Source: Patescibacteria group bacterium
Lineage (GTDB): Bacteria > Patescibacteriota > Dojkabacteria > J137
DNA length: 64,000 bases
Assembly (NCBI GenBank): GCA_963169855.1
Contig: CAUJCN010000002.1
Location: 69,508 to 133,507, forward strand
Direction: 5' to 3'
The number at the start of each line of letters is the position of its first letter. Position 1 is the stretch's first letter. A program made the position numbers and the translations under genes. Positions 980-45,137 of the stretch are shown piece by piece. The notes under the pieces were generated by a model. The model was not told the DNA's origin and ran no database searches. It saw nothing but the letters and a program-made list of their open reading frames with translations.

Positions 980-3900
980 TTATTCGTCTCGTCTTCCAGC
1001 GTATAGATATACACCAGTTCCTCCTCCGATAACAATAATTATTAGTAATAGAATCCACCAGTTAAATCCATTTCCTCCGTTATCTTGAACCCCAAGAACG
1101 AAGTTGAAGTTTTCGACAGCGTCATCAGTAATGCTAACTTCTTTATCAGAAGCTCCTAATACCGAGAAGTTGTCTGGAATATCATTTCTATCGATTCTGA
1201 TATTGTAATTTCCAGGACAAATTTCGAATTCATAAGATCCGTCTGCAGCAGTAGTTTCCTCTGCAACAATTACTTCATCTCCGTTTTCGATATAGTAAAC
1301 CTGAACTAGAACTCCAGCAATTCCTTGCTCTCCAGATTCCTGAGTATTGTTTTTATTAATATCATCGAATACTGATCCAGATAGTGTGAATCTTTCGTCA
1401 CAAGTCTGAACTCCGCTTCCTAAGATATCTTGTTCATCATCCTCTTCTTCAGAAGGTTCTGGTGTCTGAGGTCCGCTGTTTCCAACTCCTAGAACAGATC
1501 CTACAATCACTGGAACTGAAGCAACTGCTACATCAGCATCGCTATCAGAAACTGTTACAGTACATACATAGTTTCCAGCAGTTAAATTCATTGCGTTAGA
1601 TACAAAGATTGATGATCCAGTATTTACTACAGATCCTGCACATACGCCTCCAAACGTGAAGTTGTAGTTTGGATTTCCTAAGTTGTTTAGACTTGCTGTA
1701 ATTGTAAAGCTACTTCCAGCTGTTACGTTTACTGTTCCAGAATTATTAGTTGCTGGAGAGTTTCCAAATAATACTACTGTTGGTAGCAAATCTGTTATAA
1801 CCGCAGGATTAACAACTACAGTCTTTTCTGCAGTCGCTGTATCTCCATCAAAGTCTTCAACAGTTACTTTACATGTGTATGAACCTGGAGTTGCTGGTGT
1901 AACAACAAACTCAGCATTTCCTGTACATCCTGCAAAGTTTCCATCAGCCCAAGTGTAAGTAAATGGTGCGTTTCCTCCTAATACATTAGCGTCCATTGTG
2001 ATCGCTTCTAGAGTTGTTGAGTCTCCAGGTGTAGTAGCAATTGACACCGAAGGTGCATTGTTTGTTACTGTAACTGTTACAGAATCACATCCGCACATTC
2101 CCTCGCCGTTTCCTGTTGCATAGAATTCAACAACTTCTTCATAATCCTCTGTTAATAGATCATAAACTGGCTCTTCTTCTTCGATTTCACACATAACTGG
2201 GTGACACCAGTCTCCTTCCCATCCATAATCAACAAAGTCAGCTAATGCCGCAAATGATGCTACCTTAGCATACTTATAGAATGATTCGCTTTCACAAACC
2301 ATTAGAGTAACTTCGTATTCTCCTTCATGAGTGTAAGTATGACTTGGAATTGTAATGTTTCCAGGTGTTGATTGAGAGAATGTTGTGCTTGATCCGTCTC
2401 CGTAATCAACTACAATTACCCAATCAGAATCGTCAGGAGTTTCTCTGTTATCGCAGTAAACCTCTGATTCAGAAATGCTAAGCAATGTGAATCCTTCTTC
2501 GTATTCTGTCTCGCTCTCACCTTCTATACAACTTGGATCTGAGAACCAACCTGTAAATATTGCTTCTTCACCTTCTGTTATAGTTTGATCACTTTCAATA
2601 TCTACAGATGGAATTACATTTTCAATATAGTAATTTACTGAATATATTTCACTTTCATTTCCTGCTTCATCTACAACATAATAAGAAACTTCGTAAGCTC
2701 CTTCGTGAAGGAATGAAGTATCCCAATGTGTAATTCCAGCATCAGCTAACAATTGAGCAATATCCCATGTATATTCTGTGTTTTCAACTAATGAATCAGC
2801 GTAACATCCTAAGTCAGTCTCTCCTATTGGTGACCAAGTCAGATAGAAGCAAACTTCAGCGATATCAAAATTATCGTTTGCAGTCAGATCCCATAGTGTT
2901 GGAATTGAATCGCCTTCGTAGAATGTTGCATCTTGCAACTGATTTTCTTCAGCAACAGTAGGAGCTGTTGTGTCGATTATAAATGGTCCGTAGTGAGCTG
3001 TACTTGTCCAGTTTCCAACGTTGTCCACTGTGCTTAAATTGAACCACCAAACTCCGTCAGCTAAAGGTGTACTTGTAGCTTCGTTATCAGTTTCTTCCAA
3101 ATCCTTTACTTGATCTGGTGTAGAAGGTGCAGGTGTAAAATCGTATGAATATCCATCAACTCCTGATTTATTATCAACGCCTCCGTTTAACCATGATACC
3201 CAAACAGTATTATCGTTTGAAGGTGTGTTAATTGCAGGATCAGATGTAAATCCTGACGGATCTGCTGAAGGAATCTGAGAATCAACTCTTAAATTGTAGA
3301 TTACATTACTTTCTTCCCAGTGACCTGCAGAGTCTTTGACTCTCATTTGGAAATCATAAACAGAATTGTGTGTTAATCCTGAAAGATTTACTACACAAGT
3401 TGCGTCTAATCCAACTGGTGTTAATACTCCGTTAATCCAGCCTGACCATAGTAATCTCTTGTATCTAGCCTGACATTCTGTGATAGGACTTACAGTATCG
3501 GAAACTGTAGATGTTAAAGTAGGCGAACCATTCGTGTAGTTTCCCGAAACCGGAGTTACATTAAATGTATTAAAATCTGGATCTCTACTATCAGCAATTC
3601 TTTCGATAAATTCTCCATATCCGATGTTTCCAACATTGTCCTCAACTCTTACATTAATTTCTAATTCATCTCCATCAGTTTCGAATAAACTTCCAGATAC
3701 GCATCTTCCGAATAAGTATAACCCTGGAGTCCAATCTGAGCTTTCTGGGTTTGATACGTTGAAGTTTGTAGTTACTGCACAAGTGAATGGATTAATTCCC
3801 GCAACTGCATCAGAAACGTTTGCTCTGATTAAGAATGCGATTCCATTAACGTATGGGTCATAATCTGCAACAACCTCGATAGGTCCAACTGTAGGAGCTG

Positions 3901-5923
3901 TGTTATCTACAACAATTGTTCTTGAAGTAGCTTTTGTGTTTCCAGCTTCGTCTGTAGCAGCAGTTCTTAAAGTATAAGTTCCATCTGCTAATGTAGTTGT
4001 ATCAATATCACAATTGAATGTGAATGATGTTCCCCCGATTGATGAGTCTGCAGGAGTTGATCCGCAAGGCATTAAGAAAACAGTATTAGTATCGTTGTAA
4101 ACATTTACAGCAACTCTTTTCAACATCATATTATCTGTAGCGTGAACTTCAACGTTGTACGTTCCACCAACAATCATTCCATCTGAAGAAGGATCTACAA
4201 ATGAAATTCCTGGCTTAGTATTATCAACAAAGAATGTGTTTGTATCCATGCCCCAGGCGATGTCTTCGTCTAGAAACTGAGCTGAGAATACATACATTCC
4301 ATCTGGGTTTGTAGTTGTATCATAAGCACAAGTTACATCAAGTGAATCTCCTAAAAGATCTGCTCCTGGTGCTTCCTGACAATTTCCTACCAAGTTAGCA
4401 GGTCCGCTTTCGAATGCATCTTTCCAGAATCTTAAGTAGTAGCTGCCCATTCCAGAGTCATCGGTTGCTAAAGCTCTTCCTGTGATCGATCCTCTAACAT
4501 AAGAGTTTTCTACAGGTGTAACGATTGTTACAGATGGAGCTTCGTTAGGGATAACTGGGTCCTGTTCGAAGTCGTAAGTAATGTGATTAATCTGAACTTT
4601 GTCTACAACGATGTTCCATGAAGGATTCCAGTTTCCTAATCCAACACTTACAGCTCTTACAACTGCTGAAGGTGTAACACCAGGAATTGAGCTTAGAGGT
4701 TGATTTGAGTCATATCCTCCAGCTGGGTTCCATGAACCCCAGAATAAACCTCCATCAACATCCCATGTCTGCCATACATTATCTAAAACTGTTTCGTTGT
4801 AATAAGGTTCGTAAACAATATATTGATCAATAGATCCGTTTCCTTCATTGTCGATTCCTAATCTGAATGCTGCTCCAGCAAATTCAGGACCAGATACTTT
4901 CTTAGCGTCGAAACTTAAATTTGTAATTTCGCTTAGAGGAATTTCTACCGATAAAGTAGTTCTGCTTCTAGAAGCTGTAGTTTCGTCTGTAATTAGTTCT
5001 AATGCTCCAACCGGTAATGGTGAATCTGGTTGAGAAATGAAATTCACTTGAGCTCCACTTTCTGCAACAACAGACCATCCCTGCATTTCTGAAGGTCTAA
5101 CAATGTATGTTACTGGATCAGGAGTAGTTGGATTCGAGTAAGTAATAGAACATTCTGCTGACCATCCACTAACGTAAGGTGCAGTTGCTCTAACTTTAAA
5201 TGTATACGTTCCTTCACCTTCTGTGAATGCTCCAACGTAAGAATTTGTTCCTACTGTTGTTGTCCATTCTGGGAGACCAGGTGTTGTAACATGATATTCA
5301 TATTGAGTAGCTCCATCAAATGCATCCCATTGAGCTGTAACATCATAACTTTCTGTTGTAGATCCACAGGCTAATGTTTCTGGAGTTGGGATTTCCCATC
5401 TTAGATTCTGAGGAACACCCTGACAAGCAAATGAATTTAGGCTTGTAACAATATTATAATTTAGAGTATCTAAATTACCGATTGGAGTCATAGTTGCATC
5501 AACAACTCTAACTTCCCATCCTGCTAAACCTGCTGGACTATCTCCGCTGTTATCTAAGAAGATATTTGCGTTGATTCCTGATACATTAAGAGTTCCTAGA
5601 GTTGCAAGGTTGAACCAAGAACTGAATGAACCACCGTTAATAAAGTATCTTCCCTCTAAAGTATATTCGTCGTACCAATTTTGTACGCTTACTTCAAGAC
5701 CATCATTTGCAATCGCAGAACCGATTCCGCAAGCATTTCCTCCCACAAGCTGAGATGTAGATTCAACAATATCTACAACTGGTGCTGCAACAGGAAAACT
5801 TACTGGTAGTGGTTCAGCCTTTACATAGCTAATGAAAACCATTGGGTTAATCTGAAGTAAAAGTAGGGATGCGAGAACGGTAGATATGATTACACGCCTC
5901 AATCTAGTGGATTGAAAATTCAT
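980..5923 (-). CDS. giant multi-domain surface protein (adhesin-like) with N-terminal signal peptide and C-terminal TM anchor
   Basis: ORF 980..5992. Likely start at Met24 (5923) giving signal peptide MNFQSTRLRRVIISTVLASLLLLQ. Repeated Ig-like junctions (VDNTAPTV, IDTTAPTV, VDNTKPG), a PKD-like motif (VVDYGDGSS...HTYTHEGEYEV), a Cna-B/SdrD-B-like C-terminal domain (SGSVFDDINKN...GNYNIRIDRNDIPDNF), an acidic linker and a C-terminal hydrophobic helix with RRDE tail. Confidence 0.8.
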   Translation of the reverse strand: MNFQSTRLRRVIISTVLASLLLLQINPMVFISYVKAEPLPVSFPVAAPVVDIVESTSQLVGGNACGIGSAIANDGLEVSVQNWYDEYTLEGRYFINGGSFSSWFNLATLGTLNVSGINANIFLDNSGDSPAGLAGWEVRVVDATMTPIGNLDTLNYNIVTSLNSFACQGVPQNLRWEIPTPETLACGSTTESYDVTAQWDAFDGATQYEYHVTTPGLPEWTTTVGTNSYVGAFTEGEGTYTFKVRATAPYVSGWSAECSITYSNPTTPDPVTYIVRPSEMQGWSVVAESGAQVNFISQPDSPLPVGALELITDETTASRSRTTLSVEIPLSEITNLSFDAKKVSGPEFAGAAFRLGIDNEGNGSIDQYIVYEPYYNETVLDNVWQTWDVDGGLFWGSWNPAGGYDSNQPLSSIPGVTPSAVVRAVSVGLGNWNPSWNIVVDKVQINHITYDFEQDPVIPNEAPSVTIVTPVENSYVRGSITGRALATDDSGMGSYYLRFWKDAFESGPANLVGNCQEAPGADLLGDSLDVTCAYDTTTNPDGMYVFSAQFLDEDIAWGMDTNTFFVDNTKPGISFVDPSSDGMIVGGTYNVEVHATDNMMLKRVAVNVYNDTNTVFLMPCGSTPADSSIGGTSFTFNCDIDTTTLADGTYTLRTAATDEAGNTKATSRTIVVDNTAPTVGPIEVVADYDPYVNGIAFLIRANVSDAVAGINPFTCAVTTNFNVSNPESSDWTPGLYLFGRCVSGSLFETDGDELEINVRVEDNVGNIGYGEFIERIADSRDPDFNTFNVTPVSGNYTNGSPTLTSTVSDTVSPITECQARYKRLLWSGWINGVLTPVGLDATCVVNLSGLTHNSVYDFQMRVKDSAGHWEESNVIYNLRVDSQIPSADPSGFTSDPAINTPSNDNTVWVSWLNGGVDNKSGVDGYSYDFTPAPSTPDQVKDLEETDNEATSTPLADGVWWFNLSTVDNVGNWTSTAHYGPFIIDTTAPTVAEENQLQDATFYEGDSIPTLWDLTANDNFDIAEVCFYLTWSPIGETDLGCYADSLVENTEYTWDIAQLLADAGITHWDTSFLHEGAYEVSYYVVDEAGNESEIYSVNYYIENVIPSVDIESDQTITEGEEAIFTGWFSDPSCIEGESETEYEEGFTLLSISESEVYCDNRETPDDSDWVIVVDYGDGSSTTFSQSTPGNITIPSHTYTHEGEYEVTLMVCESESFYKYAKVASFAALADFVDYGWEGDWCHPVMCEIEEEEPVYDLLTEDYEEVVEFYATGNGEGMCGCDSVTVTVTNNAPSVSIATTPGDSTTLEAITMDANVLGGNAPFTYTWADGNFAGCTGNAEFVVTPATPGSYTCKVTVEDFDGDTATAEKTVVVNPAVITDLLPTVVLFGNSPATNNSGTVNVTAGSSFTITASLNNLGNPNYNFTFGGVCAGSVVNTGSSIFVSNAMNLTAGNYVCTVTVSDSDADVAVASVPVIVGSVLGVGNSGPQTPEPSEEEDDEQDILGSGVQTCDERFTLSGSVFDDINKNNTQESGEQGIAGVLVQVYYIENGDEVIVAEETTAADGSYEFEICPGNYNIRIDRNDIPDNFSVLGASDKEVSITDDAVENFNFVLGVQDNGGNGFNWWILLLIIIVIGGGTGVYLYAGRRDE

Positions 5924-41989: not shown

Positions 41990-42415
41990 TTAAGTCTCGT
42001 TTTTAACAGGCTCAAATAGCTGCTTAGCTTCCTCGATAGTTTCTGATGTCTTTGTATTATGGCGAGTTAATTTGAGTTGTCCTGCACCTTTTCTATCTGT
42101 GAAATACGATCCTGAAAGTTCTCGAACTGGGTCGCCAATAATATCAAGTGTCACAGCTCCGTCATGTGGACGGTTATCGCCTCTTTTCCCATGAGGTGCT
42201 TCACTTTTGTAAAGATAGTAAAGTTGTAGTTTGTTTTGGTAACTTTTGGTTATCTTTGCTGTTATTGAGTTTGATTCTGAAGGTTTTTCGAAAAAGGAGC
42301 GAATATGAATTGAAGTAAGTGTTTGGTGAATACAAACATAGATATCTACATTGCCTTTCTTTCCATCTTTATCACTCTCATAATAAAGGTTACCTTTCCA
42401 AGTTCCATGCATTAC
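41990..42415 (-). CDS. hypothetical protein in a GC-richer segment (start placed at internal Met)
   Basis: the N-terminal 60 codons of tracked ORF 41990..42601 look like antisense read-through; MHGTWKGNLYYESDKDGKKG... onward looks protein-like. Confidence 0.35.
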   Translation of the reverse strand, partial: VMHGTWKGNLYYESDKDGKKGNVDIYVCIHQTLTSIHIRSFFEKPSESNSITAKITKSYQNKLQLYYLYKSEAPHGKRGDNRPHDGAVTLDIIGDPVRELSGSYFTDRKGAGQLKLTRHNTKTSETIEEAKQLFEPVKNET

Positions 42416-42912: not shown

Positions 42913-43095
42913 AACAACTTTACAATTTAATACAATCTTGTTTAGTTAGGTAAAACCTAATTTGTACTGAATATCTTTTCAGTAGGACTAATTAAAATGT
43001 AAAGAAAGCCAAGTTCCCCGGCTTGTAAAAGATAGGGGAACCATTAATACAATACACTGCTATAGTTATTATTTAATTTATTAAAGGAAGATATT

Positions 43096-43566
43096 ATGAA
43101 AATTACAAAAAGAAACAATAATGACAACACGCAACTTGCAACAACATCTTACTCACCTGTGAGAAGTATGTTTGATGATTTCTTTAGGATGCCATCATTA
43201 ATTGACGAAATGTTTAATAGATCGGTTATGCCAAGTTATAGTAGTCTTTCTGCTGATGTTTGGGAAGAAGACGATAGCTTCTTTGTGAAAATGGCTTTGC
43301 CTGGAGTAACTAAAGATGATGTCGAGATTGAGGTTGACGCAGATGTAGTTAGAATCAAGGGTGGGAAAAAGGTAGAAGAGAAAGAAGATAATAAAAAGAA
43401 GTATTATTATCGAAGCCTTGATACTCAATTTGAGCAGGCATTTAATCTACCTACTGTAGTAGATGCAGAAAAAGTAGAGGCTAAGTTTAAAGATGGTGTT
43501 CTTGAAGTAAAGTTACCAAAGGCTGAACAATATAAGCCGAAAAAAATCTCAATAGAAGGTGAATAA
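43096..43566 (+). CDS. Hsp20/alpha-crystallin family small heat-shock protein (paralog 2)
   Basis: 156 aa; alpha-crystallin-domain pattern (DGVLEVKLPK). Confidence 0.8.
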   Translation: MKITKRNNNDNTQLATTSYSPVRSMFDDFFRMPSLIDEMFNRSVMPSYSSLSADVWEEDDSFFVKMALPGVTKDDVEIEVDADVVRIKGGKKVEEKEDNKKKYYYRSLDTQFEQAFNLPTVVDAEKVEAKFKDGVLEVKLPKAEQYKPKKISIEGE

Positions 43567-43585
43567 AGAGAGTATATCAGCAAGA

Positions 43586-43617
43586 AGAAGGCGGACGCAA
43601 GTCCGCCTTCTCTTTTA
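43586..43617 (+). terminator. rho-independent terminator after hsp20
   Basis: gaaggcggac-gcaa-gtccgccttc followed by tcttttaat. Confidence 0.7.
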
Positions 43618-43915
43618 ATACACAACTTTAGTCAGGGCAAACCTGTTACTTGGTACTTAAAATTATCAATATATAACAATTTTTTTGTTTATATTTCAAG
43701 ACAGAAACAGGACTGCAACGGATATTTAGGCACCAGAAATGCAAGCCCAGCAACAAAAAAGCTTAGAACCACAGAGTTGTAAATTTCATCGGTTTTGGAA
43801 GAATTTCAGAAGATTTAGGCTCATTTCGGATTTCGAGAAGAATTTGGGCTGATTTAGCAAGCAGTATAAGCGTTTCTAGCGTCGAGAAACGGGTCTTATA
43901 AGAACATTAAGAAAA

Positions 43916-44005
43916 TGGCGGAGGAGACAGGATTTGAACCTGCGTCAGCCAGATGGCTGAACAGTCTTTCCAGGACTGCGCACTAGACCACTATGCGACT
44001 CCTCC
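43916..44005 (-). tRNA. tRNA-Ser (anticodon GGA), CCA encoded
   Basis: Hand fold: acceptor GGAGGAG/CTCCTCC, anticodon stem CAGTC/GACTG with loop CTGGAAA, long variable arm (CAGCC/GGCTG), T-arm GCAGG-TTCAAAT-CCTGT, 3' GCCA. Confidence 0.85.
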
Positions 44006-44245
44006 AGTTTGTAGTCTTCTTTTTAAATAGGCTCGACCATACCCAGTTTTTAACTGTTTCTCTCTTAGAATTGCCGACTTCCGATTTAAACATGCTTCGA
44101 AATAAATTAAAGTCAAAGGTCTCCTGTATTTGGTAGATGTGACTTTACCTAATTCATGTTCTTGCAATCTCTTGCTCAGATCCTCTGTAAAACCAATGTA
44201 CAGCTTTCCGTCTTGTGATTGTAAAACGTAGGTATAATATAGCAT
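43991..44245 (-). CDS. small GIY-YIG nuclease family protein (YhbQ-like)
   Basis: MLYYTYVLQSQDGKLYIGFTEDLSKRLQEHELGK; the tracked ORF extends upstream into the partial tRNA copy, so start placed at Met28; 3' end overlaps the tRNA-Ser 5' end by 15 nt. Confidence 0.65.
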   Translation of the reverse strand: MLYYTYVLQSQDGKLYIGFTEDLSKRLQEHELGKVTSTKYRRPLTLIYFEACLNRKSAILREKQLKTGYGRAYLKRRLQTGGVA

Positions 44246-44268
44246 TACTTTTTTAATATTCAAATAGA

Positions 44269-44324
44269 CACCACTACCCGCCTGCAACGCTTTGCGTAGC
44301 AATGCGGGCAGGTGCGACTCCTCC
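44269..44324 (-). repeat. partial duplicate of the tRNA-Ser 5' end with an inserted GC-rich hairpin
   Basis: minus strand reads GGAGGAGTCGCA + 36-nt GC-rich insert + TAGTGGTG; tRNA-Ser begins GGAGGAGTCGCATAGTGGTC. Confidence 0.5.
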
Positions 44325-44421
44325 ATTGGATTGACTGTAGATTATACCAAATCACATTAGTTTGCAGTATTCTTAAAAATACAACTATAATGAAATAAAC
44401 TTTACTTTTTACTATTATTTT

Positions 44422-44793
44422 ATGAATAGCGTAGTACACTTCGAAATACCAGCTGATGATTTAGAAAGAGTTCAAAAATTTTATAATGAGGTATTCAATT
44501 GGCAAGCTACAGAAACTATGGAAGGAGCAGTAATGGTAAATACAACAGAAACTCATGATAATGGCATTCCGAAAGCAGCCGGAGCAATAAATGGAGACTT
44601 CTTCAAAAGAGATGATAACTTAAAGCATCCACTTATTGTGTTAACAGTTGATAGCATAGTTGAGAAATTTGAGACTATTAAAAATGCAGGTGGTTCAGTT
44701 GTTGTAGATAAAATGCCAGTTGGAGATATGGGATTTTGTGCTTACTTTAAGGATTCAGAAGGTAATGTAATGGGATTGTGGGAAAATCCTTAA
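44422..44793 (+). CDS. VOC (glyoxalase/bleomycin-resistance) family protein
   Basis: 123 aa; HFEIPADDLERVQKFY...FKDSEGNVMGLWEN pattern. Confidence 0.65.
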   Translation: MNSVVHFEIPADDLERVQKFYNEVFNWQATETMEGAVMVNTTETHDNGIPKAAGAINGDFFKRDDNLKHPLIVLTVDSIVEKFETIKNAGGSVVVDKMPVGDMGFCAYFKDSEGNVMGLWENP

Positions 44794-45137
44794 TTCTGAT
44801 ATTCTGAATTTAAAACTTGCCCAAATTCCAACAGAGAATCAGATAGTGGAATGTTCGCATGAATAAGTGTCATTGCCAAAATACCTAAAAAGAACGCTGT
44901 TTTGATAGCGTCTATATCAGACTCTTTTAACTGATTCAATTTACTATCTAGTATATTTTTCTTTTCCTCAACTGACACATCATCTGCAATTGCAAGATCT
45001 ACTCCCATGGCTGAAAATAAACTCTGCAATATCTCGTAAACAGTTAGAGATTTAAATGATGTTTTCAGGAATAAAAAGCTTGGATCTAACCCGCCTACAG
45101 CGTCTTTCGCGATCTTCAAAAGTTCAAATTTCTCCAT
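44790..45137 (-). CDS. hypothetical protein
   Basis: 115-aa ORF. Confidence 0.35.
   Translation of the reverse strand: MEKFELLKIAKDAVGGLDPSFLFLKTSFKSLTVYEILQSLFSAMGVDLAIADDVSVEEKKNILDSKLNQLKESDIDAIKTAFFLGILAMTLIHANIPLSDSLLEFGQVLNSEYQN

What the first reader, a model, noticed from the sequence alone, without database searches (positions are those of the whole stretch)
43916..44324. tRNA-Ser preceded by a small GIY-YIG nuclease gene and a partial copy of its own 5' end
The minus strand reads: partial tRNA 5' end (GGAGGAGTCGCA, a 36-nt GC hairpin insert, TAGTGGTG), then the GIY-YIG ORF whose 3' end overlaps the real tRNA, then intact tRNA-Ser(GGA). A duplicated tRNA 5' segment bracketing a nuclease gene suggests the GIY-YIG cassette inserted into or next to an ancestral tRNA copy, i.e. 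a homing-type or tRNA-associated mobile GIY-YIG element. Alternatively it is a decayed tandem tRNA.
Basis: partly seen in the sequence, partly recalled or inferred. Interest (0 to 1): 0.55.

Follow-up and report, generated by a model that had tools for sequence, protein, structure and literature searches.

The report
Nuclease-plus-palindrome cassette inside tRNA gene
A tiny nuclease gene has lodged itself inside a serine-tRNA gene while carrying a spare copy of the tRNA's first 20 bases so the tRNA still works, and the GC-rich hairpin next to it is one copy of a 36-base palindrome that turns up in many uncultured bacteria, even inside essential genes; the pair looks like an undescribed kind of selfish DNA.

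Summary
On the minus strand lie tRNA-Ser nt 1-12, a 36-nt GC hairpin, tRNA nt 13-19, an 84-aa GIY-YIG ORF whose stop codon sits inside the tRNA, and then an intact tRNA-Ser(GGA).

This layout is the rule for the family. In 63 of 80 homologous loci (mostly Patescibacteria) the ORF abuts a same-strand tRNA of about 10 amino-acid specificities. About 53 loci, the window included, carry a 5' stub of their own tRNA split by the same hairpin. Verrucomicrobia show the mirror image.

The hairpin ("P") is a conserved 36-bp element. Covariation shows it folds identically on both strands. It occurs in both orientations, flips in place, and nests at the centre of other copies. Most copies found by searching for P itself are solo, inside ORFs (for example alanyl-tRNA synthetase), 23S rRNA and terminator loops.

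A second GIY-YIG subfamily has the same architecture with a different hairpin. The protein resembles Slx1/YhbQ structure-specific nucleases, not I-TevI, and is under purifying selection.

Best reading: a promoterless selfish nuclease gene riding the tRNA promoter, paired with a cognate mobile palindrome, analogous to REP-RAYT. How it moves is inferred, not shown. No description was found in the searchable literature.

The parts
43916..44005 (-). Intact tRNA-Ser(GGA), with its long variable arm and an encoded CCA end
   Evidence: ARAGORN; Rfam tRNA 55.3 bits, full-length match
43991..44245 (-). Promoterless 84-aa GIY-YIG nuclease ORF (MLYYTYVL...YLKRRLQTGGVA). The last 4 codons and the stop codon TAG lie inside tRNA nt 1-15.
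   Evidence: ORF list; Pfam GIY-YIG E = 5e-14; 207 homologues, most listed at 78-90 aa; AlphaFold model pLDDT 91.9; closest folds are UPF0213 and Slx1; dN/dS 0.04-0.45 among homologues
44246..44268 (-). Short AT-rich spacer between the end of the stub and the ATG (GTCTATTTGAATATTAAAAAAGTA region). It may hold 2-3 more diverged tRNA-derived bases.
   Evidence: Sequence. In other loci this gap is mostly under 20 nt, and the ATG often overlaps the last tRNA-derived base.
44269..44276 (-). Stub part 2: TAGTGGT(G), equal to tRNA nt 13-19
   Evidence: Sequence; junction model gives n = 12 and m about 19-21
44277..44312 (-). Palindromic element P, 36 bp, here reading CCTGCCCGCATTGCTACGCAAAGCGTTGCAGGCGGG on the gene strand
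   Evidence: Unique in the window. Its plus-strand sequence is identical, 36 of 36, to the copies in L020 and L028. Both strands fold to the same shape. Covariation supports both slipped registers. More than 120 exact-pattern copies in metagenome contigs.
44313..44324 (-). Stub part 1: GGAGGAGTCGCA, equal to tRNA nt 1-12
   Evidence: Exact second copy of the 12-mer; 0.08 expected by chance
44341..44349 (-). Extended -10 promoter-like box TGGTATAAT, 16 nt upstream of stub position +1. Probably the native tRNA promoter, now driving stub, P, ORF and tRNA as one transcript.
   Evidence: Read from the sequence. The same motif class lies mostly 8-29 nt upstream of the stub in 25 of 53 loci, against 2.35 expected. 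The consensus promoter scan did not flag it because there is no -35 match.

Best explanation
The locus is a minimal selfish cassette embedded in the tRNA-Ser(GGA) transcription unit. It has two partners.

(1) A promoterless 84-aa nuclease gene of the standalone Slx1/YhbQ (UPF0213) branch of the GIY-YIG superfamily.

(2) A 36-bp element, P, whose two strands each fold into the same hairpin: a 4-nt 5' tail, then 5+3+4 base pairs and a triloop.

The gene sits between the original promoter-proximal start of the tRNA gene (the stub, nt 1-19, now split by P) and a complete tRNA. The inserted DNA came with, or created, a replacement copy of the first 20 or so tRNA bases. The essential tRNA therefore survives, and the nuclease is transcribed from the tRNA promoter. 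This is the same logic as tRNA-targeting genomic islands, but applied to the 5' end and without an integrase.

P also behaves as a mobile element in its own right. It inserts without target duplication, in either orientation, into hairpin loops, ORFs (in frame, 12 codons), rRNA and tRNA-derived DNA.

The proposed working (inferred, not shown) is as follows. The nuclease recognises the P hairpin or cruciform through its structure plus its sequence and nicks or cuts there. This drives copying or relocation of P, and recombination that carries the adjacent ORF into other tRNA genes. The conserved tRNA sequence on both sides (stub and intact tRNA), together with P, would supply homology that works in any genome.

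P stays next to the gene because the pair must travel together. It sits in the stub because the stub is the only dispensable DNA between the promoter and the ATG.
For: Shown:
- Tight, oriented linkage of the ORF family to tRNA genes. 63 of 80 loci have a same-strand tRNA starting -47 to +128 nt from the stop codon, mostly within about 15 nt. Nine others (eight Verrucomicrobia with tRNA-Val, and L014 with tRNA-Ala) have the tRNA 11-59 nt upstream.
- A stub of the locus's own tRNA, split by P, in 53 loci including the window. P sits after tRNA position 4-20 (36 in L041). Stubs end at about positions 9-30 (41 in L041) and the duplication starts at about +1.
- Verrucomicrobia are the mirror image: intact tRNA-Val, then the ORF, then a 3' tRNA stub split by P, with about 20 nt of 3' flank also duplicated.
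- Tandem units occur (L059, L029, L025, L035).
- P is present within about 130 nt upstream of the ATG or just after the stop in nearly every locus; L065 has none and L064 only a truncated copy.
- P is far more conserved than the ORF's synonymous sites. dS is about 1.8 between most loci, yet P is 36/36 identical between the window, L020 and L028. L021 and L029 differ by dS 0.52 but share an identical P downstream of the ORF.
- Covariation supports hairpins on both strands: 94.8% and 93.5% Watson-Crick pairing in the two slipped registers with compensatory changes, against 72% for the simple symmetric palindrome. The predicted fold is the same on both strands.
- P flips orientation at the same site, and nested copies lie at the dyad centre of the outer copy.
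- P is mobile on its own. Only about 7 of 81 metagenome copies have the nuclease gene within 700 nt. 39 of 81 lie inside long ORFs. One is an exact 12-codon insertion in AlaRS relative to E. coli. One lies at the apex of a 23S rRNA hairpin. Others lie in terminator or hairpin loops.
- Density is roughly 10-20 P copies per Mb, against the one or two nuclease cassettes seen per 6-kb locus or per genome where two loci came from one genome.
- Nuclease subfamily and hairpin type co-vary. A second subfamily has the same architecture at tRNA-Ser and tRNA-Ala with a different hairpin, CCC(C)GAAGGG-N-CCCCTT(C/T)GGGG, in 5 of 6 loci. A third hairpin goes with a third ORF type (L003, L061).
- The protein is closest to UPF0213 and Slx1 by sequence and by fold (TM 0.69). 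dN/dS is 0.04-0.45.
- A tRNA-type promoter lies upstream of the stub.
Against: - No cassette-free orthologue of this exact locus was found, so mobility rests on patchiness, multiple targets and independent insertions rather than on an empty site.
- Nuclease activity, its substrate and any action on P are untested. A hydrolytic nuclease cannot rejoin DNA, so host functions must be assumed.
- The way the 5' tRNA duplication arises is not explained by any single simple model. P itself usually makes no target duplication, and the tRNA-derived bases between P and the ATG do not fit a contiguous P-ORF element.
- Genome-level co-occurrence of solo P copies with the nuclease gene could not be tested.
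- An intact tRNA, and therefore any target site within it, persists in cassette-bearing genomes. That is awkward for classical homing.
- A few loci have stubs that do not match the adjacent tRNA (L015, L039) or have no stub (L009, L074, L080).
Confidence: 0.55

Rival explanations
1. Classical free-standing homing endonuclease. The nuclease cuts cassette-free tRNA alleles in the 5' (D-arm) region, and the cassette is copied in by break repair. P is either a hitch-hiker or an 'immunity' insertion that destroys the target site retained in the stub.
For: - GIY-YIG homing endonucleases next to or targeting tRNA genes are known; T4 SegB is an example (PMC2330249, found).
- Cassettes sit at defined places in tRNA genes and recur at the same position in one tRNA type. 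For example, tRNA-Gln position 10 accounts for most of the 13 loci with P at position 10.
- P is almost obligatory in the stub. That is what one would expect if a stub without P were cleaved.
Against: - The protein is 84 aa with no DNA-binding domain, and it falls in the Slx1/UPF0213 branch. I-TevI scores only E = 0.5.
- The intact tRNA remains in the same genome.
- Any disrupting mutation would give immunity, yet a single 36-bp sequence is conserved across phyla. Its fold is conserved too, it is dispersed on its own, and different hairpins go with different nuclease subfamilies.
- About 10 amino-acid specificities of tRNA, and several positions within one tRNA type, would demand very relaxed site specificity.
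Confidence: 0.2
2. A domesticated host gene. On this view it is a YhbQ-like housekeeping DNA-repair or RNA-metabolism nuclease that is simply co-transcribed with tRNAs. P would be a regulatory or stabilising RNA hairpin (mRNA 5'/3' protection, an RNase III site or an attenuator), and the stubs would be by-products of local rearrangements.
For: - The ORF is under purifying selection.
- It is consistently co-oriented with a tRNA and sits behind its promoter.
- P lies 5' of the ORF in Patescibacteria and 3' of it in Verrucomicrobia, where a stabilising hairpin could act.
- A published analysis noted a fusion of a prokaryotic Slx1-like domain to a tRNA methyltransferase (PMC1564403).
Against: - A housekeeping gene would not sit at about 10 different kinds of tRNA gene in different genomes, form tandem arrays, or be replaced at the same tRNA by another subfamily.
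- P occurs in both orientations relative to transcription, and its fold is selected on both strands.
- P inserts into ORFs, rRNA and other P copies far from any nuclease gene.
- The gene's distribution is patchy.
Confidence: 0.15
3. A decayed tandem duplicate of tRNA-Ser, with an unrelated ORF and an unrelated GC hairpin that happen to lie between the copies.
For: Tandem tRNA duplication is common. The stub is only 19 nt long.
Against: - The same arrangement of stub, hairpin and ORF recurs in more than 50 loci at about 10 amino-acid specificities of tRNA.
- With two exceptions (L041, L068), stubs lack everything beyond tRNA position 30 or so. 43 of 53 are mismatch-free over the part before P, which is not the pattern of decay.
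- The hairpin is a conserved element.
Confidence: 0.03

Closest known systems
REP / REPIN elements and their RAYT transposases
   Same: - One or a few copies of an enzyme gene are flanked by the short GC-rich imperfect palindromes that it is thought to mobilise.
- Most palindrome copies lie far from the gene.
- The palindrome is a 4-nt tail plus a hairpin.
- Each enzyme subfamily has its own cognate repeat.
   Different: - The enzyme here is a hydrolytic GIY-YIG (Slx1-like) nuclease, not an HUH/Y1 transposase.
- P folds on both strands. It lacks a terminal GTAG.
- P is low-copy (about 10-20 per Mb), and about half of the sampled copies lie inside coding sequences or rRNA rather than between genes.
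- The gene is embedded in tRNA genes.
Free-standing GIY-YIG homing endonucleases of phage T4 (SegB in the tRNA gene cluster; PMC2330249) and I-TevI
   Same: A selfish GIY-YIG nuclease gene is associated with tRNA genes. Spread by break repair is plausible.
   Different: - Seg proteins and I-TevI are much larger and carry C-terminal DNA-binding modules (from established knowledge); this protein is the bare 84-aa catalytic domain.
- It belongs to a different branch of the superfamily.
- In the known cases there is no duplicated tRNA stub and no partner palindrome.
Genomic islands and prophages that integrate into tRNA genes through tyrosine integrases
   Same: The element carries a copy of the displaced part of the tRNA. 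Insertion therefore leaves an intact tRNA plus a partial direct repeat.
   Different: - There is no integrase.
- The inserted DNA is essentially one 250-bp ORF.
- In Patescibacteria the duplicated part is the 5' end rather than the 3' end.
- The repeat is split by a palindrome.
Rickettsia palindromic elements, and the very small dispersed repeats of cyanobacteria (Elhai et al. 2008). Both are recalled from memory and were not read here.
   Same: [quoted passage not shown]
   Different: - There is no known sequence relationship.
- To my knowledge, no mobilising enzyme has been assigned to those elements (also from memory). Here a specific nuclease family is physically linked to the element.
Slx1 / bacterial UPF0213 (YhbQ, BH0048, EF2693) structure-specific nucleases
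   Same: These are the closest matches in both sequence and fold: 1zg2 at E = 3e-10, and Slx1 at TM 0.69 with rmsd 1.9 Å. All are the minimal GIY-YIG domain.
   Different: - Slx1 acts together with Slx4 and has a RING domain.
- The searched literature reports no link of UPF0213 proteins to tRNA genes or palindromes.

Membership tests
GIY-YIG nuclease superfamily (Pfam PF01541) | Sequence match to the GIY-YIG catalytic domain above the curated threshold | tested here: met
   52.7 bits against a cut-off of 22.6, E = 5.3e-14
GIY-YIG nuclease superfamily (Pfam PF01541) | The beta-beta-alpha-beta-alpha-alpha fold, with conserved Tyr (GIY/YIG), Arg, His and Glu residues | tested here: met
   AlphaFold model pLDDT 91.9 with element order E-E-H-E-H-H. 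Y16, G18, R26, H30, E50 and E62 are invariant among 37 homologues.
Slx1 / UPF0213 (YhbQ) branch | Closest relatives by sequence and by structure are UPF0213 and Slx1, and the C-terminal Asn motif of the UvrC/I-TevI lineage is absent | tested here: met
   PDB profile search: 1zg2 at 3e-10, 1ywl at 6e-8, SLX1 at 1e-3, UvrC at 0.14, I-TevI at 0.5. The Foldseek top 7 hits are all UPF0213 or Slx1. The statement that the Asn motif is absent from the Slx1 family comes from PMC1564403.
Slx1 / UPF0213 (YhbQ) branch | Structure-specific cleavage of branched or hairpin DNA | not testable with these tools
   Needs biochemistry
GIY-YIG homing endonucleases (I-TevI / Seg type) | A catalytic domain joined to a C-terminal DNA-binding region | tested here: not met
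   The whole protein is 84 aa, and the Pfam match covers residues 3-71. Most listed homologues are 78-90 aa.
GIY-YIG homing endonucleases (I-TevI / Seg type) | Encoded in a group I intron, or free-standing in a phage genome | tested here: not met
   Rfam finds no intron family in 43000-45000 at E <= 1. No PHROG family matches. The context is a cellular tRNA gene.
GIY-YIG homing endonucleases (I-TevI / Seg type) | Cleaves the cassette-free allele at a specific site, with presence/absence polymorphism at that site | tested here: inconclusive
   No empty orthologous site was found. The nearest relative has the same tRNA occupied by another cassette. Cleavage cannot be tested here.
REP-RAYT system | The enzyme is an HUH/Y1 (IS200/IS605-like) transposase | tested here: not met
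   The only clear domain is GIY-YIG, with a weak sub-threshold match to T5orf172 (17.5 bits against a cut-off of 20)
REP-RAYT system | The enzyme gene is flanked by its cognate short palindromes, and most copies are dispersed elsewhere | tested here: met
   P is adjacent to the ORF in about 78 of 80 loci. Only about 7 of 81 copies found by searching for P are near the gene.
REP-RAYT system | The repeats are extragenic, high-copy, and tagged with a 5' GT(A/G)G | tested here: not met
   39 of 81 copies lie inside long ORFs. Density is about 10-20 per Mb. The tail is CCYG.
tRNA-integrating islands (tyrosine integrase) | A partial tRNA direct repeat brackets the insert and the tRNA is regenerated | tested here: met
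   Stub nt 1-19 upstream and the intact tRNA downstream
tRNA-integrating islands (tyrosine integrase) | An integrase gene lies within the element | tested here: not met
   The insert is one 255-nt ORF. The neighbouring genes encode a glyoxalase and an Hsp20.

The most novel reading that the evidence does not exclude
P together with its GIY-YIG partner is a new class of prokaryotic mobile DNA. On this reading a bare, Slx1-like structure-specific nuclease, with no transposase, recombinase or reverse transcriptase, propagates a 36-bp element that folds on both strands and is tolerated inside essential genes, rRNA and terminators. The nuclease gene persists by nesting in tRNA genes with a built-in replacement of the displaced tRNA end. 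Several nuclease subfamilies would each have their own hairpin, making tRNA genes of Patescibacteria a battleground for such cassettes.
Probability: 0.35. Interest if true: 0.85.

Novelty: new variant of a known kind. Interest (0 to 1): 0.72.

Why it matters
If the pairing is functional, four things follow.

- It gives an enzyme to a class of very small palindromic insertions. As far as I recall, such insertions have been seen in several bacterial groups without any assigned mobilising protein.
- It shows how a 250-bp gene can colonise an essential tRNA gene without killing it.
- It explains a recurrent mis-annotation: N-terminal extensions such as LPALLRKALQAG on small GIY-YIG proteins, and 12-residue inserts such as PARNATHSVAGG in conserved proteins of uncultured bacteria.
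- It offers a compact nuclease of about 80 aa with a defined 36-bp structured DNA partner, which could be tested directly in vitro.

Separately, a published survey reports GIY-YIG ORFs inside non-intron insertions in rRNA genes of the Candidate Phyla Radiation (CPR, the group that includes Patescibacteria) (PMC11270868). Whether those belong to the same system was not examined here.

Tried and rejected
1. Empty-site search. I took the flanking glyoxalase gene and searched for homologues. The nearest relative is only 65% identical. Its tRNA-Ser(GGA) is itself occupied by a cassette of another subfamily, so no cassette-free orthologue was obtained.
2. Target-site duplication as the general mark of P insertion. 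Only 18% of solo copies have flanking direct repeats of 5 nt or more (control 3%), mostly inside tandem-repeat tracts, and about 75% have none. Rejected as the rule.
3. P as a simple symmetric palindrome. Only 72% of pairs are Watson-Crick in that register, against about 94-95% in the two slipped registers. Rejected.
4. An RNA-mediated origin of the duplication, suggested because the duplication starts at tRNA +1 in most loci. Rejected. The Verrucomicrobial duplications include about 20 nt of 3' flank, and some loci include 6-10 nt of 5' leader.
5. P as the two terminal inverted repeats of a longer element containing the ORF, as in the usual origin of miniature inverted-repeat elements. No half-P was seen at the far end of the ORF in the sequences inspected.
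6. A group I intron or any known RNA family at the hairpin. Rfam gives nothing at E <= 1.
7. NCBIfam, PHROGs and PADLOC gave no informative match.
8. Literature. I ran nine full-text searches, including one for the P sequence itself, and read passages in three papers. No description of this architecture turned up.
9. The first attempt at search for related loci, with a broad alignment, failed because no column block was conserved enough. It was repeated with closer sequences.
Full report
**1. The observation**

Read on the minus strand, the region holds the following, in order:

- an extended -10-like box, TGGTATAAT, at 44349-44341;
- 16 nt later, GGAGGAGTCGCA at 44324-44313;
- a 36-nt GC-rich hairpin at 44312-44277;
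- TAGTGGT(G) at 44276-44269;
- a 23-nt AT-rich spacer;
- an ORF from the ATG at 44245 to the TAG at 43993-43991;
- tRNA-Ser(GGA) at 44005-43916.

ARAGORN and Rfam (55.3 bits) confirm the tRNA. The 12-mer occurs exactly twice in the 64 kb, against 0.08 matches expected by chance. With the hairpin removed, the stub equals tRNA nt 1-19.

The hairpin is unique in the window and folds well. The RNA fold of the 71-nt segment that holds it has z = -2.97. DNA folds of the 36 nt alone give -12.0 and -11.4 kcal/mol on the two strands.

The ORF is a GIY-YIG domain protein (Pfam E = 5e-14). It is the only one in the window. Its last four codons and its stop codon lie inside the tRNA.

The 111-aa gene call in public data (P0001) starts at 44326 and translates the stub and the hairpin. 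Homologues start at MxYYTYVL, so the true product is most likely 84 aa.

**2. The arrangement is the rule for this protein family**

A protein search found 207 homologues. Most of those listed are 78-90 aa, and the few that carry a source name are from Patescibacteria.

I fetched 80 genomic loci encoding relatives from species-representative genomes and scanned them for tRNAs.

- In 63 of 80 loci, a tRNA on the same strand starts between -47 and +128 nt from the stop codon, mostly within about 15 nt.
- The tRNAs are Gln (most often), Lys, Leu, Ile, Val, Thr, His, Ser, Asp and Glu.
- Nine loci have the tRNA 11-59 nt upstream instead: eight Verrucomicrobia with tRNA-Val, and L014 (Gottesmanbacteria) with tRNA-Ala.

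In 53 loci, the window included, the 130 nt upstream of the ATG hold the first bases of that locus's own tRNA. These bases are interrupted by the same GC-rich element and followed by the next 3-18 tRNA bases.

- The element sits after tRNA position 4-20, with a mode of 10. L041, another tRNA-Ser(GGA), is the exception: there it lies in the anticodon loop.
- The stub ends at about positions 9-30, most often 20-27 (41 in L041).
- The ATG follows within about 20 nt in most loci, and often overlaps the last tRNA-derived base.
- The duplication starts at tRNA +1 in most loci, and extends 6-10 nt upstream in four.
- 43 of 53 stubs have no mismatch over the part before the element.

The DNA that does not derive from the target is therefore essentially the bare ORF plus the hairpin.

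An extended -10 motif lies mostly 8-29 nt upstream of the stub in 25 of 53 loci, against 2.35 expected. The cassette therefore sits inside the tRNA transcription unit and has no promoter of its own.

Verrucomicrobia show the mirror image: an intact tRNA-Val, then the ORF, then tRNA nt ~44-52, the element, and tRNA nt 53-76 plus the same 20 nt of 3' flank.

Tandem units occur. L059 and L029 have two ORF units. L025, L035 and L004 have a second stub-element-stub unit without an ORF.

**3. The hairpin is a conserved element, P**

Its consensus is CCCGCCTGCAACGCTATGCGTAGCATTGCGGGCAGG.

In the 80 loci seeded by the nuclease gene (436 kb), true copies of P lie almost only next to the ORF. 67 pattern matches lie within 130 nt upstream of the ATG, and about 20 lie just after the stop codon. 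Only L065 lacks P, and L064 has a truncated copy.

- P occurs in both orientations relative to the gene.
- The same tRNA site carries opposite orientations in different genomes (L048 versus L053; L020 versus L073), and even within one genome (L029).
- Nested copies sit at the dyad centre of the outer copy: exactly at 18|19 in L043, L061, L071 and L054, and at about the centre in L011.

P is much better conserved than the neighbouring ORF.

- Synonymous sites are saturated between most loci (median dS 1.8), yet the window's P is 36/36 identical to the copies in L020 and L028.
- L021 and L029 differ by dS 0.52 but share an identical P downstream of the ORF.
- Two cassettes in one genome are about 78% identical in the ORF but 35/36 identical in P.

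Covariation among 27 distinct 36-nt copies rejects a simple symmetric palindrome, in which only 72% of pairs are Watson-Crick. It supports two slipped registers instead:

- 94.8% Watson-Crick, with compensatory changes at 7·34, 16·26 and 17·25;
- 93.5% Watson-Crick, with compensatory changes at 7·25 and 11·21.

These two registers are the same fold viewed on the two strands. ViennaRNA accordingly gives an identical shape for both strands: a 4-nt 5' tail, then 5+3+4 bp and a triloop. Selection for the same hairpin on both strands, together with use in both orientations, points to a function at the DNA level (a hairpin or cruciform) rather than to one particular RNA.

**4. P is also a mobile element on its own**

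Viral contigs gave two hits, both solo copies in one GC-rich phage.

- Of the 81 P copies in metagenome contigs, only about 7 have this GIY-YIG family within 700 nt.
- The host contigs span 31-62% GC.
- 39 of 81 copies lie inside long ORFs. The 36 nt make 12 codons. Translating the consensus by hand, two of the three frames on each strand are free of stop codons; the TTT-loop variant in this window is open in all three frames on the gene strand.

Examples of solo insertions:

- In L121, P is an exact 12-residue insertion (PARNATHSVAGG) in alanyl-tRNA synthetase relative to the E. coli enzyme, directly before the conserved VDTGMGLER motif.
- In L089, it is a 37-nt insertion at the apex of a small 23S rRNA hairpin.
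- Other copies lie in loops of terminator-like or other hairpins (L122, L135, L143, L157), or at the centre of another P (L094, L109).

About 75% of solo copies have neither a flanking direct repeat nor a flanking inverted repeat. 18% have direct repeats of 5 nt or more, against 3% in controls, mostly within short tandem-repeat tracts that are often heptameric.

About 12% lie within 100 nt of a tRNA gene, or inside a tRNA-like fragment. I estimate roughly 1% would be expected by chance, assuming about 45 tRNA genes per Mb.

The density of extra copies is about one per 50-80 kb, which is roughly 10-20 per Mb. The loci studied carry one or two nuclease cassettes each.

The relationship therefore resembles REP elements and their RAYT genes: the gene always has the element beside it, while most copies of the element are elsewhere.

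**5. Other nuclease subfamilies have their own hairpins**

The closest available relative of this genome region is L086, whose glyoxalase is 65% identical to the window's. Its tRNA-Ser(GGA) gene reads as follows: tRNA nt 1-15, a different double hairpin (CCCCTAAGGGGAGCCTTCGGCT), tRNA nt 16-25, a 12-nt spacer, an 86-aa GIY-YIG of a different subfamily, and then the intact tRNA.

I looked at five more members of that subfamily.

- L209 and L211 (tRNA-Ser), L214 (tRNA-Ala) and L215 (tRNA-Ser, two tandem units) all have a stub split by CCC(C)GAAGGG-N-CCCCTT(C/T)GGGG.
- L213 has no stub, but it carries tRNA-Ser copies split by this hairpin downstream.

A third hairpin, TCGCCTCTTCGGCGACCTGCCGATGAGGCAGG or a close variant, splits tRNA-Gln at position 21/22. 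In L003 and L061 it goes with a third ORF type; in L071 it splits a second tRNA-Gln copy.

Further GIY-YIG subfamilies sit directly downstream of the same tRNA-Gln genes (L012, L026, L056, L071).

Hairpin type and nuclease subfamily therefore co-vary. This is the strongest indirect argument that the hairpin is the nuclease's cognate DNA.

**6. The protein**

- The AlphaFold model is confident, with pLDDT 91.9.
- By sequence, the best solved relatives are the UPF0213 proteins BH0048 and EF2693, followed by SLX1. UvrC and I-TevI are marginal.
- By fold, the top seven hits are all UPF0213 or Slx1, with TM 0.69 and rmsd 1.9 Å to 7cq3.
- It is the bare catalytic domain, with no DNA-binding module.
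- The GIY/YIG tyrosines, Arg26, His30 and Glu50/62 are invariant.
- dN/dS is 0.04-0.45.
- There are no matches in PHROGs or NCBIfam, and only two weak, uninformative ones in PADLOC.

**7. How it most likely works**

Shown:

- the architecture, its generality and its mirror form;
- the promoter context;
- P's conservation, its fold on both strands, its orientation flips and nesting, and its independent insertions;
- the co-variation of hairpin type with nuclease subfamily;
- the protein's affinity to the Slx1/YhbQ branch, and purifying selection on it.

Inferred:

(a) The cassette entered the 5' part of the tRNA gene together with a replacement copy of tRNA nt 1 to about 20. The tRNA therefore stays intact, as happens with islands that integrate into tRNA genes.

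(b) The ORF is expressed from the tRNA promoter. Because its stop codon lies inside the tRNA, RNase P cleavage would leave the mRNA without a stop codon. Only unprocessed precursor could then yield full-length protein, which may limit expression.

(c) The nuclease acts on the P hairpin or cruciform, and this drives both P's own spread and recombination that moves the ORF between tRNA genes. Formally, the structure equals the insertion, at the position of P, of a unit made of P, a few tRNA bases, the ORF and tRNA nt 1-n. P and the tRNA sequence could then serve as homology arms in any genome.

(d) P lies in the stub because the stub is the only dispensable DNA between the promoter and the ATG.

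Unexplained:

- how the duplication arises each time a new kind of tRNA is colonised;
- how a purely hydrolytic enzyme achieves insertion;
- why tRNA-Gln is favoured.

**8. Comparison with what is known, and novelty**

The closest known systems are:

- REP/RAYT, which has the same gene-and-repeat logic but an unrelated enzyme;
- T4 SegB, a GIY-YIG homing endonuclease among tRNA genes, which is a larger protein of a different branch with no stub and no palindrome (PMC2330249);
- tRNA-integrating islands, which use the same replacement-of-the-displaced-end logic but have an integrase and target the 3' end;
- small in-frame palindromic elements such as those of Rickettsia and cyanobacteria (recalled from memory), for which I know of no assigned enzyme.

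A survey of rRNA insertions in the Candidate Phyla Radiation (CPR, the group that includes Patescibacteria) noted GIY-YIG ORFs in non-intron insertions. The passages I searched make no mention of tRNA genes or palindromes (PMC11270868).

The GIY-YIG phylogenomic survey describes prokaryotic standalone Slx1-like domains without linking them to tRNA genes or palindromes (PMC1564403).

A full-text search for the P sequence found nothing relevant, and no paper links GIY-YIG to REP- or MITE-like repeats.

I rate this a new variant of known kinds of selfish DNA. There is a real chance, about 0.35, that it is a distinct class.

**9. Verdict**

The 'decayed tandem tRNA' alternative is rejected. The mechanism remains inferred. 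Interest is 0.72.

Noticed in passing
window 43584-43652 (-): A strong GC hairpin followed by a T-rich tract (GAAGGCGGACTTGCGTCCGCCTTCTTC) lies about 260 nt downstream of the tRNA, next to the end of the convergent hsp20 gene. It gives a weak, sub-threshold match to the Rfam family STnc40 (33.7 bits against a threshold of 45). It is probably a bidirectional terminator.
   Followed up: no
window 41990-42412 (-): A gene call of 140 aa here carries a Pfam Cap15_CD_rec hit, a domain I associate with CBASS anti-phage effectors (from memory). No other defence gene is visible in the few kb listed around it.
   Followed up: no
window 43991-44005 (-): The nuclease ORF's stop codon is tRNA nt 13-15. RNase P processing of a co-transcript would therefore remove the stop codon and leave a non-stop mRNA. 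This may act as a brake on nuclease expression. In other loci the overlap ranges from -47 to 0 nt.
   Followed up: partly
window 44246-44326 (-); also proteins P0020, P0025, P0035 and P0056: Public gene calls extend the small GIY-YIG proteins at the N-terminus by translating the stub and P (for example LPALLRKALQAG). This is a recurrent annotation artefact. It is also a convenient way to find such cassettes in protein databases.
   Followed up: yes
L121 (metagenome contig Ga0265296_1000285), P at 5246-5281: P is an exact 12-codon in-frame insertion (PARNATHSVAGG) in the catalytic domain of alanyl-tRNA synthetase, immediately before the conserved VDTGMGLER motif. 39 of 81 solo P copies lie inside long ORFs.
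   Followed up: partly
L089 8700-9529 (-): The 23S rRNA gene carries P at the apex of a small domain I hairpin. It also has two other insertions, of about 93 and 117 nt, in neighbouring hairpin loops. These were not examined.
   Followed up: partly
L006 3372-3512: Just downstream of tRNA-Lys lies a full-length tRNA-like gene with a 48-nt variant of P in its D-loop, a further insertion in the T-loop, and an unusual anticodon loop (ACTTAGT). It could be a pseudogene, or a tRNA that needs its insertions removed.
   Followed up: no
L071 3320-3425; L003 about 3322-3410; L061 about 3253-3320: A different 32-nt double hairpin (TCGCCTCATCGGCGACCTGCCGATGAGGCAGG and close variants) splits tRNA-Gln sequence at position 21/22. 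In L003 and L061 it is followed by a third type of GIY-YIG ORF.
   Followed up: partly
L012 3401-3679, L026 about 3370-3646, L056 3411-3650, L071 3523-3756: Other GIY-YIG subfamilies, with a ...KGWxRxKK... C-terminus, lie directly downstream of the same tRNA-Gln genes that carry the main cassette upstream. In L012 a structured GC-rich spacer and what may be a T-arm fragment lie in between.
   Followed up: no
L091, L100, L104, L110, L115, L129, L161, L168 (flanks of solo P copies): Solo P copies are often embedded in short tandem repeats, frequently heptamers (catccaa, ctgacta, ggaattt and others). These may be footprints of repeated insertion and excision, or simply a preferred kind of target.
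   Followed up: partly
L087 4113-4148 and L088 10444-10479 (IMG/VR viral contigs): A solo P copy sits between genes of a GC-rich phage, with no GIY-YIG gene within 700 nt.
   Followed up: partly
L015 about 2930-3000 and L039 about 2930-3000: The stub in front of the ORF does not match the adjacent tRNA (Thr-CGT and His-GTG respectively). It looks like the 5' end of a different tRNA, which suggests that stubs can travel with the cassette.
   Followed up: no
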